From a virus, in IMG/VR virus record IMGVR_UViG_3300017917_001903, positions 1 to 64,000 of that record: 64,000 nucleotides of DNA; one strand, given 5' to 3'. Below the pieces are notes generated by a model, which had not been told where the DNA came from, made no database searches, and saw only the letters and a program-made list of their open reading frames with translations. Position 1 is the first letter of the stretch. Every line of letters starts with the position of its first letter. The position numbers and the translations under genes are program-made. Shown in pieces: positions 1,758-56,133 of the stretch.

Positions 1758-3053
1758 TTATTGGCGTGTTGTTTTTATACCGTCTGCTGTAGGGACTGTA
1801 TCAACAACGTCAATGTCTATAACTATGCTTTTTTGTCTTACGTAGTCTGCAAGTGTTGCATAATCTTTAGACGTGATATTTATAAGCGGATTATCTCCGT
1901 TGTCAAAATTAATGAAATAGTTTAAAATGCCTGTGTCTGTTTCTAACATGGTCTTGAAATGACCTGTTAACATTTTTATACCATCTACTCGAATCCAGTT
2001 AGTGTCTAATAGTCGACCAACGTAACGTATTTGATTGTCATGCAAATCAACAATATCACCGGAAGGAAACTGTACACCATTTGGGCGCTCAATTAAAAGC
2101 AAACCACTAGTGGAATTAACACTGTAGCGATAATGATGGTTTATGATATTAAAACGTTTATCGGTTTCTGACAAGTTGTTTATGTACCTAACTGCTAACG
2201 GTGGGCTAGCTTCAGTTAGACCGTAAATGTCAACTACTGTTTGAGCACCACCATCAAACAAATGCTCTAGCAACTTTGGTTTTAAATAATCGCCGCCAGT
2301 TGTAACATACCGTAGTTTGGTACACTTGGGCATTTTATGTGTGTCAACCATAGTGTAAAAAAATTGCGAGTGTGTTGCTTTAAGCATTTCACTTTCCCAA
2401 TTGTCGTGGTTAGCAAAACTTAAAACACTTGCACCAAACACAGCCGGTAATATGGCAGTAGAGTGAACCCCCACGTGACTCATACCATGTGAGAACACAC
2501 AATAGTCATCGGGCCGAATATATTCATCAATAGCAATGCGAATGCTTAGTGCATCGTATCCAACTGAAGTTTTAATTAATCTTGGTTTGCCAGTTGTGCC
2601 GCTGGAAAAACTATATTTGTAGTTATGTTCTCGGAAGGTAATATCTAAGCTATGCGGAACAGCGTATTTTGTTGCAGGATGTTGATCTGCCAATACGATT
2701 CTGTTACTGCCTCGAAAGTCTTCTTCGGGAATTTTGATATCATAACCAACAACAAAAACCTTACCAAAGCCACCAAAGTTAGTTTCAGCTGACTTTACAT
2801 AATCAATAATCGGTAGGTAAGGATCAATCTTAACGTAATCCTTTCCGTAATCGATCAGCGCCAACAGTACAGCAACAGACGAAAAGCTAGTTGATCCTCC
2901 AGCATATACTATGCCAAATGGGTATCCATTATCGTTGTCTGCAATAAACTGTTTCCAATAACCTACTGCCGCCGCTAACTGCTCACGAGTATATTCGCCA
3001 GCTGGGTCTCGGATAATTAAATTTTTACTTACTTTTAGAACTATATCTTCCAC
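1758..3053 (-). CDS. AMP-binding (acyl-CoA synthetase/ANL family) protein
   Basis: SSGTTGKPR P-loop, YGLTE and SGD motifs. Confidence 0.8.
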   Translation of the reverse strand: MEDIVLKVSKNLIIRDPAGEYTREQLAAAVGYWKQFIADNDNGYPFGIVYAGGSTSFSSVAVLLALIDYGKDYVKIDPYLPIIDYVKSAETNFGGFGKVFVVGYDIKIPEEDFRGSNRIVLADQHPATKYAVPHSLDITFREHNYKYSFSSGTTGKPRLIKTSVGYDALSIRIAIDEYIRPDDYCVFSHGMSHVGVHSTAILPAVFGASVLSFANHDNWESEMLKATHSQFFYTMVDTHKMPKCTKLRYVTTGGDYLKPKLLEHLFDGGAQTVVDIYGLTEASPPLAVRYINNLSETDKRFNIINHHYRYSVNSTSGLLLIERPNGVQFPSGDIVDLHDNQIRYVGRLLDTNWIRVDGIKMLTGHFKTMLETDTGILNYFINFDNGDNPLINITSKDYATLADYVRQKSIVIDIDVVDTVPTADGIKTTRQ

Positions 3054-3240
3054 GTGACGCTAACCTTGCTAATGCTATTGTTTTTCTATATGAGTACGAA
3101 GTAAACACATTGGGAAAAACTGCATGCATGAGGCTAGCAATACCAGCTTTAATAAGCACTATGCCGGCGCCAGCAGCAAATTTAAAATGCTGTCTATAGG
3201 AAGTTTGTTTTTCTTTGATGTGTTTGAACATAGCAAACAC
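3025..3240 (-). CDS. small conserved protein (DUF6356-like)
   Basis: SYRQHFKFA...HAVFP pattern. Confidence 0.6.
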   Translation of the reverse strand: MFAMFKHIKEKQTSYRQHFKFAAGAGIVLIKAGIASLMHAVFPNVFTSYSYRKTIALARLASRGRYSSKSK

Positions 3241-3256
3241 TATTTATATTCAGAGA

Positions 3257-3330
3257 TGGCTGGCCCTCAAGGATTCGAACCTCGGCTGCCGGAATCAAAA
3301 TCCGGTGTCCTACCACTAGACGAAGGGCCA
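3257..3330 (-). tRNA. tRNA-Gln(TTG)
   Basis: cloverleaf, encoded CCA. Confidence 0.95.
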
Positions 3331-3335
3331 ATAAA

Positions 3336-3695
3336 TTATTTTGCTAAACTATGCTTGACGGGTTTACCGTCTTCATCGAGACACACAAAAACCATTTCGT
3401 CAATTTCAACTATGATGTTTTGTGTGGTTAAGTCTCGTACTTTTACTTCAATTGTTATGCTGGTGTTGCCAACTTTCTTAAGGGCTATACCAATTTCAAC
3501 AATATCACCTTGGCGTGCTGGTGCAACAAACTCAATTGCAGAAATGCTTTTTGTTACTACTTTTTTATGGCGTGCTTCGATGGCTGCATATATAACAGCT
3601 TCTTCATCTACCCACTGTAATAGCCTACCGCCAAATAGTGTGTTGTTAGCATTTAGGTCTTCGGGCTTTACTAATTTTCTCGTTAAAAACCGCAT
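3336..3695 (-). CDS. acyl-CoA thioesterase (hotdog fold, YciA-like)
   Basis: DLNANNTLFGGRLLQWVDE motif. Confidence 0.85.
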   Translation of the reverse strand: MRFLTRKLVKPEDLNANNTLFGGRLLQWVDEEAVIYAAIEARHKKVVTKSISAIEFVAPARQGDIVEIGIALKKVGNTSITIEVKVRDLTTQNIIVEIDEMVFVCLDEDGKPVKHSLAK

Positions 3696-3720
3696 GCATT
3701 ATGTTACCTCTTATTGTGTA

Positions 3721-3797
3721 TGGCGACCCGTAGGGGACTTGAACCCCTGGCCTCATGCGTGACAGGCATGCGATCTAACCAACTGATCTAACGGGCC
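3721..3797 (-). tRNA. tRNA-Asp(GTC)
   Basis: cloverleaf, encoded CCA. Confidence 0.95.
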
Positions 3798-3802
3798 ATG
3801 AA

Positions 3803-4016
3803 ACTTGTTAGGTGTGCTGCTACTAGTCCCCACTGGCCCAGCACTGAGTTGTTACCCTGTCCACAAGTGCATTTCTAGGTCGGCACTTGAACGCCCGCGC
3901 AATGTTATCGAGTCACCCATGTTAAGCGGGTCTCTGCGGCAGATTGCTTCGCCGGTATCTTTATGGCATGATACGTCTGCCCACTTTCGTTACGCCCAAA
4001 GTGTAATGCGGGGTTC
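3803..4016 (-). ncRNA. unassigned structured RNA between tRNA-Ser and tRNA-Asp
   Basis: GC-rich, several hairpins (CAAGTGC/GCACTTG, GTGCTG/CAGCAC, GGCAGA/TCTGCC), no credible ORF. Confidence 0.5.
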
Positions 4017-4109
4017 TGGCGGTGAGGGTGGGATTCGAACCCACGGTACGCCTATTAAGCGTACGACGGTTTAGCAAACCGCTCCTTTCGGCCTCTCAGG
4101 CACCTCACC
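4017..4109 (-). tRNA. tRNA-Ser(GCT)
   Basis: cloverleaf with long variable arm, CCA. Confidence 0.95.
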
Positions 4110-4739
4110 AACTAACTCATCTACAAACTGCAATAATAATTTATGATGTGCGGCATAATGCCAACTCTTTTTTAGATATTTTTTATTATACCAAAACTCT
4201 TCGCTTTCAGGATGACATCCTATTAGACCTATGTTACCTTGTATGATTGCCATTGGGTCGCTGTTAGCATAACTAGCAATAGTTTTATAACTACCAGAAC
4301 CAACAAATGTACAACCATCGTAAAAATACATAGGCATATATTGACCTTGCCAATTAACATTAGCTACAGTTGGGAAGCTTCTGCGTACATCGGCATTAGT
4401 TTGTTTAATATACTGCACTACTTGTATATTGTCAAGTATATCAAAATACCAATGCCCGGACCAATAGGCTCCCATGCATATGCCAAGATACTTTCCACCG
4501 CTGGTTACATAGTCTGCTATTTTATTTGATAACCTACGTGTAAAAAAATTATGGAAAGAATCGCTGTCGCCAATGCCGCCCGGAAACGCAACCGCGTCAA
4601 ACACTGCGAGATCCAAGTTAGTTAAATCTAACTCATTAAACGATATCAGTTGATATTTAGAAGATAATGCTGTAGTCATGCCCGATATACACTCTTTAGA
4701 GCATTCGGGGTGTCTTAAAAATACAGCGATCTTCTTCAT
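4071..4739 (-). CDS. class I glutamine amidotransferase-like (BPL_N-type) protein
   Basis: FPGGIGD, YLGICMGAY, GCHPE motifs; start moved to MKKIAVF. Confidence 0.8.
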   Translation of the reverse strand: MKKIAVFLRHPECSKECISGMTTALSSKYQLISFNELDLTNLDLAVFDAVAFPGGIGDSDSFHNFFTRRLSNKIADYVTSGGKYLGICMGAYWSGHWYFDILDNIQVVQYIKQTNADVRRSFPTVANVNWQGQYMPMYFYDGCTFVGSGSYKTIASYANSDPMAIIQGNIGLIGCHPESEEFWYNKKYLKKSWHYAAHHKLLLQFVDELVGEVPERPKGAVC

Positions 4740-4758
4740 TATGTACCAGCTGACAAAT

Positions 4759-4833
4759 TGGCATACCCTCAAGGATTCGAACCTCGACCAGCGGTTTTGG
4801 AGACCGTTATGCTGCCGTTAACACCAAGGGTAC
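4759..4833 (-). tRNA. tRNA-Trp(CCA)
   Basis: cloverleaf, encoded CCA. Confidence 0.9.
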
Positions 4834-5626: not shown

Positions 5627-5701
5627 TGGTGCTCCCGGAAGGATTCGAACCTCCAACCTAACCGTTATGAGCGGTCAGCTCTACCATTGAGCTACAAGAG
5701 C
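5627..5701 (-). tRNA. tRNA(CAT), Ile2 or Met
   Basis: cloverleaf, CTCATAA loop. Confidence 0.85.
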
Positions 5702-5721
5702 TAACCAGGTAACTGGCGTTC

Positions 5722-5834
5722 TGGCGTTCCTTGTGGACTTGCACCACTGTACACCAAGGACAGGTTTGCAGAGCAGGTCATTAGCCTGTTACAGTGACCA
5801 GAGAGATCCTTGTGCCACCCTTTATGGAGGAACA
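5722..5834 (-). ncRNA. tRNA-like RNA with expanded anticodon domain
   Basis: acceptor GTTCCT/AGGAAC-GCCA, T-like arm GTGG-TGCAAGT-CCAC, D-like hairpin, large domain replacing the anticodon arm. Confidence 0.6.
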
Positions 5835-5840
5835 TAAACT

Positions 5841-5916
5841 TGGTGGACTGTGTAGGGATCGAACCTACGACTTACTGATTAAGAGTCAGCTACTCTACCT
5901 ACTGAGTTAACAGTCC
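5841..5916 (-). tRNA. tRNA-Lys(CTT)
   Basis: cloverleaf, encoded CCA. Confidence 0.95.
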
Positions 5917-8242: not shown

Positions 8243-8263
8243 AATACAAAATTTTTAAACTAT

Positions 8264-8426
8264 CCATGTTATAGTAAAGTATTGTCCGCATGCAAATTTT
8301 TCAGTCGATTGCAGTCGTGATAAGCCATTGCAAGAGTTATATCAGGACTGAGAGATGGCCCTACCCAGCCCGCCTAGTGTATGCGTCCATACACGCTACC
8401 TCTGACAATACTTTACTATAACATGG
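8264..8426 (-). ncRNA. structured RNA enclosed by a perfect 23-bp inverted repeat
   Basis: 8264-8286 is the exact reverse complement of 8404-8426. Confidence 0.6.
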
Positions 8427-55899: not shown

Positions 55900-56057
55900 T
55901 GTGTTTCCTTCCTGCTAGTGTTTATATACACTATTTATGAAAAGAAACACCAAAAATAAGTACTCGGTTTATCTCCGTCCGGTCGACACGGACTTGATCC
56001 TACTCATTGCCATCGCTGTGCGACAAACCTTACACCGAAAGGTAGGGCGGCAAATTC

Positions 56058-56133
56058 TGGTGCCCTCACCATGATTCGAACACGGGACCTACTGATTACA
56101 AATCAGTTGCTCTACCAGCTGAGCTATAAGGGC
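56058..56133 (-). tRNA. tRNA-Thr(TGT), second copy
   Basis: cloverleaf, encoded CCA. Confidence 0.95.

What the first reader, a model, noticed from the sequence alone, without database searches (positions are those of the whole stretch)
5722..5834. tRNA mimic with a large domain in place of the anticodon arm
Seen: acceptor-like helix ending GCCA, T-like loop TGCAAGT and a D-like hairpin. A CACAAGGA/TCCTTGGTG stem encloses ~45 nt with a GGTCA/TGACC helix. It resembles a miniature tmRNA-like layout with no tag frame evident, or a tRNA with a structured insertion.
Basis: partly seen in the sequence, partly recalled or inferred. Interest (0 to 1): 0.7.

Follow-up and report, generated by a model that had tools for sequence, protein, structure and literature searches.

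The report
Oversized tRNA-shaped RNA in phage array
A 112-base gene in the tRNA cluster of a large freshwater phage encodes an RNA with the ends of a tRNA but a long rod where the anticodon arm should be. It looks real and conserved, but it belongs to a kind known since phages T4 and T5, whose function is still unknown.

Summary
On the minus strand, 5833-5722 is a unit built like a tRNA gene. It has the leader AGUUUAU, G+1, a 6-bp acceptor helix, a 4-bp D-like hairpin and an 8-bp bulged helix enclosing 46 nt. It then has a UACA linker, a T arm (GUGG-UGCAAGU-CCAC), G73 and an encoded CCA.

A scan for acceptor + T arm + NCCA hit only the tRNAs and this unit in the window. Chance gives 0.07 hits per strand.

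No program or Rfam family recognises it as a tRNA, tmRNA or intron-bearing tRNA.

Five related metagenome contigs carry a homologue at the same slot, after tRNA-Lys(CUU). All keep the same 8 nt at the 5' end and 26 nt at the 3' end. The interiors fall into three size classes: 112-118, 146 and 206 nt. Other relatives have an empty slot.

Flanking genes are 70-82% identical, whereas shared element blocks and tRNAs are 97-100%. The few substitutions keep the helices.

Best reading: a non-decoding, tRNA-shaped stable RNA matured by RNase P and 3' trimming. It matches T4 rnaC and T5 RNA1/RNA2 in kind, not in sequence.

The scan noted the 146-nt form before, on other DNA (e1-5354835). Interest is moderate.

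The parts
5834..5840 (-). 7-nt leader AGUUUAU between the CCA of tRNA-Lys(CUU) and G+1 of the unit, with U at -1
   Evidence: Many tRNAs of the array have the same kind of AT-rich (A)GUUU-type leader ending in U.
5722..5833 (-). Predicted mature 112-nt tRNA-shaped RNA (G+1 to the encoded CCA)
   Evidence: Homology to L207 ends exactly after GCCA. The empty-site joint 5713->5841 is.
5828..5833 (-). Acceptor helix, 5' strand GUUCCU
   Evidence: Pairs with 5726-5731. Invariant in all five homologous contigs.
5815..5827 (-). D-like hairpin CCAU-AAAGG-GUGG
   Evidence: U5824 is C in L202 and in the X2 contig, which turns U.G into C-G. This slot carries a 41-nt insertion in the 146-nt form.
5752..5814 (-). 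Long arm in the anticodon-arm position. It has an 8-bp basal helix (5807-5814 / 5752-5760, G5755 bulged), conserved internal loops, and an apical hairpin CAGG-CUAAUGA-CCUG (5788-5774).
   Evidence: The bulge is A in L202. The X2 variant (G5755U + U5756C) shifts the bulge and keeps the helix. The apical hairpin is replaced by a different hairpin in L202.
5748..5751 (-). 4-nt linker UACA in the variable-loop position
   Evidence: A5748 is U in the 206-nt forms, which gives a 5-bp T stem.
5733..5747 (-). T arm GUGG-UGCAAGU-CCAC
   Evidence: The same 15-mer is the T arm of genuine phage tRNAs (Met, Arg, Gly, Asp; Ser by my own reading of the sequence, where ARAGORN called no tRNA).
5722..5731 (-). 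Acceptor 3' strand AGGAAC, discriminator G, CCA
   Evidence: All 32 free-standing tRNAs of the window also encode CCA. An RNA-library contig has A5727G and A5731G, both opposite U.
5714..5721 (-). Tandem second copy of GAACGCCA, found only in this phage. It lengthens the 3' trailer.
   Evidence: It is absent from L202, L208, L201, L203 and L207 and from the X16 contig ('5713 left out 8').
5702..5713 (-). 12-nt spacer GUUACCUGGUUA before tRNA-Met. It can pair with the preceding CCA(G) as CCAG-UUAC-CUGG.
   Evidence: The same spacer follows tRNA-Lys directly in the empty-site relative L010.

Best explanation
The unit is a gene for a non-decoding, tRNA-shaped stable RNA that sits as one module in the phage's polycistronic tRNA operon.

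Inferred pathway:
1. It is co-transcribed with the flanking tRNA-Lys and tRNA-Met.
2. RNase P cuts between U5834 and G5833. Its guides are the coaxial acceptor/T-arm minihelix, the T loop and the 3' GCCA (an RCCA motif).
3. RNase P cleavage at tRNA-Met, followed by 3' exonucleases, trims the 20-nt trailer back to the encoded CCA.
4. The product is a 112-nt RNA. Its tRNA 'top half' gives it tRNA-like maturation, stability and CCA repair.
5. A roughly 63-nt irregular rod replaces the 17-nt anticodon arm, so the RNA cannot decode.

The rod, and in relatives the D-slot domain, is the variable and presumably functional part. It most likely acts as a ligand or decoy for a protein or RNA partner that remains unidentified.

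Shown here: the anatomy, the context, the conservation and the helix-preserving substitutions. Inferred: transcription as a stable species, the exact ends, and any function.
For: - Context is identical to that of a tRNA gene. It lies on the same strand as 32 tRNAs that all encode CCA, with AT-rich leaders ending in U. No terminator separates it from its neighbours, and promoter-like sites lie upstream of the array.
- The acceptor + T arm + NCCA signature is unique to the tRNAs and this unit in 128 kb. Chance gives 0.07 per strand.
- Homologues sit at the same slot in L202, L208 (same contig as L039/L002), L201, L203 and L207. All share the 5' GUUCCUCC and the 3' 26 nt. The acceptor 3' strand was left free in the search pattern and is still invariant.
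- Flanking coding DNA is 70-82% identical, whereas tRNAs and the shared element blocks are 97-100%. That includes 98/98 nt against L208.
- Substitutions respect the helices.
  - U5824C turns U.G into C-G.
  - The bulge G5755 is A in L202.
  - G5755U + U5756C moves the bulge but keeps the helix.
  - A5727G and A5731G lie opposite U.
  - In the 206-nt form, one 5-bp hairpin has three compensatory pairs between L201 and L207.
- The T arm is one used by genuine phage tRNAs.
- T4 rnaC and T5 RNA1/RNA2 are annotated stable tRNA-like RNAs with the same architecture and location.
- RNase P is known to process non-tRNA substrates that have such ends (PMC11143913).
Against: - There is no direct evidence for a mature RNA. 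The only RNA-library signal is one depth-2 contig covering tRNA-Met through 5761. It could be precursor RNA or contaminating DNA.
- The fold is not more stable than shuffled sequence.
- The acceptor has 6 bp instead of 7, and the T stem has 4 bp in this copy. The coaxial stack is therefore 10-11 bp instead of 12.
- Only about five distinct sequences exist, too few for statistical covariation. The T arm was fixed by the search pattern.
- Relatives with an empty slot (L010, and X2 contigs) show the RNA is dispensable.
- No partner or target was found.
Confidence: 0.6

Rival explanations
1. It is a decaying remnant. The window's 112-nt copy would be a deletion derivative of a larger functional RNA (the 206- or 146-nt form), or of an old tRNA gene. 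It would be kept only because it is harmless inside the operon.
For: - The three size classes are related by large indels. The short form's 5' 35 nt align with an internal segment of the long and mid forms.
- The slot is empty in close relatives.
- This copy carries a unique 8-nt tandem duplication at its 3' end.
- The partner of the GUCACUG segment present in the mid form is missing here, and L202 has mutated that segment.
Against: - The 98 nt shared with L208 are identical, while neighbouring genes are 70-87% identical.
- The short form exists in at least three variants (window, L202, X2) whose differences spare the helices.
- The ends are invariant across all forms.
Confidence: 0.2
2. It is a cis-acting processing or spacer structure. 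It would exist to guide maturation of the neighbouring tRNA-Lys and tRNA-Met, not to yield an RNA with its own role.
For: It sits between two tRNAs. The spacer can pair with the preceding CCA as CCAG-UUAC-CUGG.
Against: - Relatives join the same two tRNAs with only the 12-nt spacer.
- In L207 the unit is followed by a different sequence.
- An acceptor + T arm + encoded CCA is not needed for a spacer.
Confidence: 0.08
3. It is a miniature tmRNA-like ribosome-rescue RNA: a tRNA-like domain plus a helix in the P2 position.
For: The layout (acceptor, D-like loop, long helix, T arm) resembles a tmRNA tRNA-like domain. There is a very weak hit to tmRNA_permuted (10.4 bits, E 4.9).
Against: - Positions 3:70 are U-A, not G.U.
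- There is no open tag frame with a stop. The GCU AAU GAC frame runs on into tRNA-Met.
- There are no pseudoknots.
- ARAGORN in tmRNA mode is silent even at relaxed thresholds.
- The phage has its own complete permuted tmRNA with G3.U70.
Confidence: 0.03
4. It is a decoding tRNA that carries an intron or another unusual insertion.
For: The ends are those of a tRNA. At very relaxed thresholds ARAGORN frames the whole unit as an intron-containing tRNA.
Against: - The relaxed calls name a different anticodon in each size class (cct, gca, gac, cgt) and fail at default settings.
- The Rfam tRNA model does not score it.
- There is no 5-bp anticodon stem with a 7-nt loop at the right distance.
- The insert has neither group I size nor a bulge-helix-bulge motif.
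- The apical loop is not conserved between the window and L202.
Confidence: 0.03

Closest known systems
Phage T4 species 1 RNA (rnaC, 139 nt, NC_000866 70908-71046) and species 2 RNA (rnaD)
   Same: It lies in the tRNA cluster on the tRNA strand. rnaC has an acceptor-like closing helix directly followed by a canonical T arm, and long hairpins in place of the D and anticodon arms. The record calls it a 'small, stable RNA'. Its size is similar.
   Different: - No sequence similarity was found.
- The T4 rnaC annotation ends without an encoded CCA, and its acceptor has two U.U mismatches. The present unit encodes GCCA and has a 6-bp perfect helix.
- The present family shows size classes and presence/absence alleles.
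Phage T5 RNA1 (144 nt) and RNA2 (125 nt), annotated in NC_005859 as 'tRNA-like stable RNA with unknown functions'
   Same: These are a tRNA outer shell (acceptor, D-like arm, T arm) with an enlarged module in the anticodon-arm position. They are embedded among tRNA genes.
   Different: They are unrelated in sequence. The T5 RNAs keep a fuller D arm and a canonical UUCGAAU/UUCAACU T loop. Here the T loop is UGCAAGU and the D element is a 4-bp mini-hairpin.
tRNA-like domain of tmRNA
   Same: It has an acceptor helix, a D-like loop and a T arm, with a long helix leaving from the anticodon position. It ends in NCCA and is an RNase P substrate.
   Different: Here there is no G3.U70, no tag reading frame and no pseudoknots. 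The RNA is 112 nt against more than 250 nt for tmRNA.
Engineered 'tRNA scaffold' for recombinant RNA expression (cargo inserted in the anticodon stem; method paper seen, PMC3753655)
   Same: The cargo RNA replaces the anticodon arm of a tRNA frame, so that cellular tRNA enzymes process and stabilise it.
   Different: That scaffold is a laboratory design with a full tRNA body. This is a natural gene with a reduced D arm. The analogy is functional only and was not tested.

Membership tests
tRNA (Rfam RF00005 / ARAGORN) | Scores as a tRNA with the covariance model or the ARAGORN default | tested here: not met
   No RF00005 hit even at E<=10. ARAGORN found nothing in the gap or with introns allowed.
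tRNA (Rfam RF00005 / ARAGORN) | 5-bp anticodon stem with a 7-nt loop, conserved anticodon | tested here: not met
   An 8-bp bulged helix opens into a 46-nt irregular arm. The apical loop differs between the window and L202.
tRNA (Rfam RF00005 / ARAGORN) | Acceptor helix + T arm + discriminator + CCA | tested here: met
   6-bp acceptor, 4-bp T stem (5 bp in the long forms) with a 7-nt loop, G73, encoded CCA.
tmRNA | G3.U70 alanine identity pair | tested here: not met
   3:70 is U5831-A5728. The phage's own tmRNA has G3.U70.
tmRNA | Tag reading frame ending in a stop; detected by ARAGORN or Rfam | tested here: not met
   No tmRNA call. Only a 10.4-bit, E 4.9 match.
Phage tRNA-like stable RNAs (T4 rnaC/rnaD, T5 RNA1/RNA2): a kind, not a homologous family | Non-tRNA unit inside a phage tRNA cluster, on the tRNA strand, closed by an acceptor-like helix next to a T arm | tested here: met
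   Compared directly with T4 and T5.
Phage tRNA-like stable RNAs (T4 rnaC/rnaD, T5 RNA1/RNA2): a kind, not a homologous family | Accumulates as a discrete stable RNA | not testable with these tools
   Only Logan contigs were available. One depth-2 RNA-library contig covers 5622-5761.
Phage tRNA-like stable RNAs (T4 rnaC/rnaD, T5 RNA1/RNA2): a kind, not a homologous family | Sequence homology to T4 or T5 RNAs | tested here: not met
   blastn against 50,697 phage records gave only two chance-level hits (E = 5).
Y RNA-like YrlA | Rfam RF02553 match; Ro/Rsr (TROVE) gene in the genome | tested here: not met
   No YrlA hit on the unit. No TROVE match in the 87-kb record, but the record is only about 25% of the genome, so absence of the gene is inconclusive.
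RNA anti-CRISPR (solitary CRISPR-repeat mimic) | Contains a copy of a CRISPR repeat used by a host array | tested here: not met
   No CRISPR-DR hit in the window copy. The 206-nt relative has a weak CRISPR-DR9 match (E 0.094). Its 17-mer occurs only singly in GTDB genomes at the chance rate. A 12-mer gave no arrays in 401 genomes of one class. That set includes one unpublished genome, G043, which had a single hit.

The most novel reading that the evidence does not exclude
The conserved tRNA shell is a delivery frame for exchangeable RNA 'cargo'. Under this reading, the slot after tRNA-Lys(CUU) is an arms-race locus. Closely related phages in the same waters carry different effector cassettes there: empty, 112-118 nt, 146 nt plus an alanine-type minihelix, or 206 nt with loop-loop complementarity and a CRISPR-repeat-like hairpin. 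Each would be matured by the host's tRNA enzymes and would act as a decoy for a host defence or RNA-binding factor.
Probability: 0.12. Interest if true: 0.75.

Novelty: new member of a known kind. Interest (0 to 1): 0.35.

Why it matters
tRNA-shaped stable RNAs have been known in T4 and T5 tRNA clusters for about fifty years, and no function has been assigned. This scan keeps finding unrelated examples in other phages.

This family adds a case from uncultured freshwater jumbo phages, and it has one useful property. The tRNA-like ends are frozen, while the interior exists as several alleles, including a null allele, among near relatives. That natural series shows which part is the handle and which is the payload. 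It also offers ready-made constructs for testing processing and function.

By itself it is not surprising to a specialist. Its value is as one more data point for an under-annotated class of phage RNAs that tRNA finders and Rfam miss.

Tried and rejected
- **Rfam.** At gathering and at E<=10 there was no family for the window copy or for the 206-nt relative.
- **blastn against phage records.** Nothing was found.
- **IMG/VR scans.** Four element-derived patterns gave only one related contig. The 15-mer and 16-mer patterns otherwise gave chance hits or T arms of unrelated tRNAs.
- **Relatives of the neighbouring GDSL-like protein.** 80 loci were fetched. Only three carry tRNAs upstream and only one carries the unit.
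- **tmRNA or intron-bearing tRNA.** Rejected.
- **Antisense regulator.** The longest complementarity to either strand of the window is 11 nt, the same as for shuffled elements. TCTGCAAAC occurs 5 times against 0.75 expected. This is not significant after allowing for about 100 nine-mers tested, and the sites share no context.
- **CRISPR-repeat mimic.** The lead came from the long form. No arrays with the motif were found, so it is not supported.
- **Loop-loop complementarities.** These are CAGUGAC/GUCACUG in the mid form and UAGUCA/UGACUG in the long form. They were noted, but matches of this length are expected by chance in RNAs of this size.
- **Ro/Rsr partner.** No TROVE match in the 87-kb fragment, which is uninformative.
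- **RNA libraries X17 and X18.** Contigs stop at the spacer and do not cover the unit. Part of a stretch without cover is no evidence either way.

Full report
**Setting.** The window is the first 64 kb of an 86.9-kb IMG/VR virus record that CheckV estimates to be about 25% complete, so the phage is large. Its minus strand carries 32 free-standing tRNA genes, a GOLLD RNA with an embedded tRNA-Lys, and a permuted tmRNA. The finding is the 139-nt gap (5702-5840) between tRNA-Lys(CUU) at 5841-5916 and tRNA-Met at 5627-5701. All three lie on the minus strand. No ORF of 50 codons or more overlaps the gap. No terminator-like site lies between the neighbouring tRNAs, and promoter-like sites lie upstream of the array.

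**Anatomy (read directly).** After the CCA of tRNA-Lys comes the leader AGUUUAU, followed by these parts:
- G5833 UUCCU pairs with AGGAAC (5731-5726), giving six Watson-Crick pairs.
- CCAU-AAAGG-GUGG (5827-5815) is a small D-like hairpin.
- CACAAGGA (5814-5807) pairs with UCCUU(G)GUG (5760-5752), with G5755 bulged. This helix encloses 46 nt.
- UACA (5751-5748) is a linker in the variable-loop position.
- GUGG-UGCAAGU-CCAC (5747-5733) is a T arm.
- A5732 follows, then the acceptor 3' strand, G5725 and CCA (5724-5722).

The minimum-free-energy fold of the 112-mer is this four-way shape, but it is no more stable than shuffled sequence (z = 0.06). In this phage alone, GAACGCCA is duplicated in tandem (5729-5722 and 5721-5714). 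The 12-nt spacer GUUACCUGGUUA then leads into tRNA-Met.

**Is it more than chance?** I scanned both strands of the window for a 6-bp terminal helix, a 4-5-bp stem with a T[GT]C[AG]A 7-nt loop placed 0-1 nt before the 3' strand, and NCCA. The plus strand gave nothing. The minus strand gave the tRNAs and one other hit, 5722-5833. One hundred Markov-shuffled windows gave 0.07 hits per strand. All 32 free tRNAs of the window encode CCA and have AT-rich leaders, mostly ending in U. The unit is therefore framed exactly like its neighbours. The 15-nt T arm, although its loop is UGCAAGU and not UUCRANY, is the T arm of genuine tRNAs (Met, Arg, Gly, Asp, Ser) in unrelated viral contigs.

**What it is not.**
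- Rfam finds no family at gathering thresholds or at E<=10.
- ARAGORN finds nothing with introns allowed or in tmRNA mode. At very relaxed thresholds it frames the whole unit as an intron-bearing tRNA but names a different anticodon in each size class.
- Positions 3:70 are U-A, so the alanine determinant of tmRNA is missing, and there is no closed tag frame. The phage's own tmRNA has G3.U70 and a normal tag.

**Relatives.**
- IMG/VR holds one other contig with the unit, fetched as L002 and L039.
- One exact-pattern scan of metagenome contigs (T arm, seven free positions, GCCA) returned eight loci. Five of them are true homologues, and each lies directly after tRNA-Lys(CUU)-CCA-GUUUAU.
- L202 has a 118-nt form like the window's.
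- L208, from the same phage type as L039, has a 146-nt form.
- L201, L203 and L207 have a 206-nt form.
- All forms share GUUCCUCC at the 5' end and GUGGUGCAAGUCCACAAGGAACGCCA at the 3' end. The seven acceptor positions left free in the pattern are identical in all of them.
- In L207 the sequence after GCCA is unrelated, which places the 3' boundary of the unit at the CCA.
- In L010 the same two tRNAs are joined by the 12-nt spacer alone.
- Contigs of a freshwater DNA run (X2) include this empty junction (5713 joined to 5841) as well as a filled short-form variant.

**Conservation.** Against L208 the last 98 nt are identical. Flanking coding DNA in the same contigs is 70-87% identical, and the tRNAs are 97-100%. 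The neighbouring GDSL-like protein is 78% identical at the amino-acid level. The shell and the shared blocks therefore evolve like tRNAs, not like spacers.

**Do the changes respect the fold?** There are few changes, but they all do.
- U5824 is C in L202 and in X2, which turns a U.G pair of the D-like stem into C-G.
- The bulged G5755 is A in L202.
- In X2 the adjacent double change G5755U + U5756C moves the bulge by one position and keeps all eight pairs.
- An RNA-library contig (X16, depth 2) has A5727G and A5731G, both opposite U.
- The apical hairpin CAGG-CUAAUGA-CCUG is replaced in L202 by a different hairpin, while the flanking internal-loop sequences stay identical.
- In the 206-nt form, L201 and L207 differ by three compensatory pairs in one 5-bp stem, and its 7-nt loop is nearly unchanged (YUAGUCA: U in L201, C in L207).
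- With about five distinct sequences this is suggestive, not statistical. The T arm itself was fixed by the search.

**How the size classes relate.** The 5' domains of the 146- and 206-nt forms are homologous. The 146-nt form shares its rod with the short forms. The first 35 nt of the short form align with an internal segment of the longer forms. The family is therefore a mosaic produced by indels and recombination inside constant ends. Whether the window's copy is a streamlined version or a decaying one cannot be decided. Its perfect identity with L208 over 98 nt, and the existence of three helix-sparing short variants, argue for continued constraint.

**Closest known.**
- T4 rnaC, fetched from NC_000866, has an acceptor-like helix (CGAUUCG/CGUUUCG) directly followed by a canonical T arm, with two long hairpins in between. 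It lies at the end of the T4 tRNA cluster and is annotated as a small stable RNA.
- T5 RNA1 and RNA2 are annotated in NC_005859 as 'tRNA-like stable RNA with unknown functions'. They fold as tRNA shells with an enlarged anticodon-arm module.
- No sequence similarity links these to the present unit. It is the same kind of RNA, not the same family.
- RNase P is documented to process non-tRNA substrates such as pre-tmRNA, 4.5S RNA, viral tRNA-like structures and phage antisense RNAs (PMC11143913).
- The unit offers U-1, G+1-C72 and an RCCA 3' end.

**Earlier notes of this scan.** The 146-nt form was examined on another genome and the same T4 analogy was reached (e1-5354835). At least eight other oversized tRNA-shaped units have been reported from other phages. 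In my own loci I saw two more, at L199 2181-2307 and L116 12818-12931.

**Mechanism.** I commit to a tRNA-scaffolded, non-decoding stable RNA (confidence 0.6 for the class and for the processing route). The steps are co-transcription, RNase P cleavage at U5834/G5833, and trimming to the encoded CCA. The acceptor/T minihelix would act as the processing and stability handle, and the rod as the effector. Nothing here identifies the effector's partner:
- There is no antisense target above chance.
- There is no Ro-type gene in the available fragment.
- A CRISPR-repeat lead from the long form failed two searches. The second search included one unpublished genome, G043, which contributed a single chance-level hit.
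- Aminoacylation is unlikely on general knowledge of identity sets, because G73 with G1-C72, U2-A71 and U3-A70 matches none that act through the acceptor alone. This was not tested.

**Verdict.** The unit is a new, narrowly distributed family of a long-known but unexplained kind of phage RNA. Interest is moderate (0.35). The allelic series, with constant ends and exchangeable or absent interiors, is its most useful feature.

Noticed in passing
L208:1809-1860 (same as L039:2689-2740): In the 146-nt-form phage, an extra 52-nt unit sits between tRNA-Lys and the tRNA-shaped RNA. It has the same GUUUAU leader. It is an 8-bp terminal helix GGGCCGGC/GUCGGUCC with G3.U70, A73 and CCA (an alanine-type minihelix signature), and it encloses a CAUC-GAAA-GAUG hairpin. 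Its ends resemble the acceptor of the phage tmRNA.
   Followed up: partly
window 5714-5729 (minus): Tandem duplication GAACGCCA GAACGCCA at the 3' end of the unit. It is absent from every relative and from an RNA-library contig.
   Followed up: yes
window 5705-5716 (minus): The spacer GUUACCUGG can pair with the preceding CCA(G) as CCAG-UUAC-CUGG. The 3' end of whichever unit lies upstream (tRNA-Lys in the empty allele) is then sequestered in the precursor.
   Followed up: no
L201:599-804 (minus), L207:22-227: The 206-nt form contains GUUCCCUGCC-AAGUAGC-GG(A)CAGG followed by AUUGAAAC. That is a hairpin plus an 8-nt tail shaped like a CRISPR repeat (CRISPR-DR9, E 0.094). It also has two hairpin loops, UAGUCA and GUGACU, that are complementary. 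No matching arrays were found.
   Followed up: partly
L199:2181-2307 (minus) and L116:12818-12931 (plus): Two further oversized tRNA-like units (127 and 114 nt; acceptor helix, T arm, ACCA) lie in tRNA arrays of unrelated viral contigs. ARAGORN calls neither. The L199 unit has the same UGCAAGU T loop.
   Followed up: partly
L199, around plus-strand position 4354 (the T arm; the unit reads on the minus strand): A roughly 94-nt class II tRNA-Ser(GCU) that ARAGORN missed. Its T arm UGUGG-UGCAAGU-CCACA is identical to that of the 206-nt form.
   Followed up: partly
window 8243-8423 (minus): A 181-nt ORF-free gap between tRNA-Glu and tRNA-Tyr, closed by a long perfect inverted repeat (UAUAGUAAAGUAUUGUC ... 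GACAAUACUUUACUAUA). It starts just after the tRNA-Glu CCA. A gap of similar size exists in relatives L203 and L208.
   Followed up: no
window 56008-56052 (minus): An Rfam COG2908 RNA motif (70.3 bits) lies immediately downstream of tRNA-Thr 56058-56133 in a phage genome.
   Followed up: no
window 1758-4772 (minus): Genes interleaved with the tRNAs have Pfam matches of metabolic type: an AMP-binding enzyme, a 4HBT thioesterase, a BPL_N (glutamine-amidotransferase-like) domain and a GDSL-like hydrolase.
   Followed up: no
window 6068, 10542, 22471, 53953 (plus) and 5764 (minus): The 9-mer TCTGCAAAC, a conserved internal-loop sequence of the unit, occurs 5 times against 0.75 expected. Four copies are antisense to minus-strand genes. 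I judged this not significant after multiple testing.
   Followed up: partly
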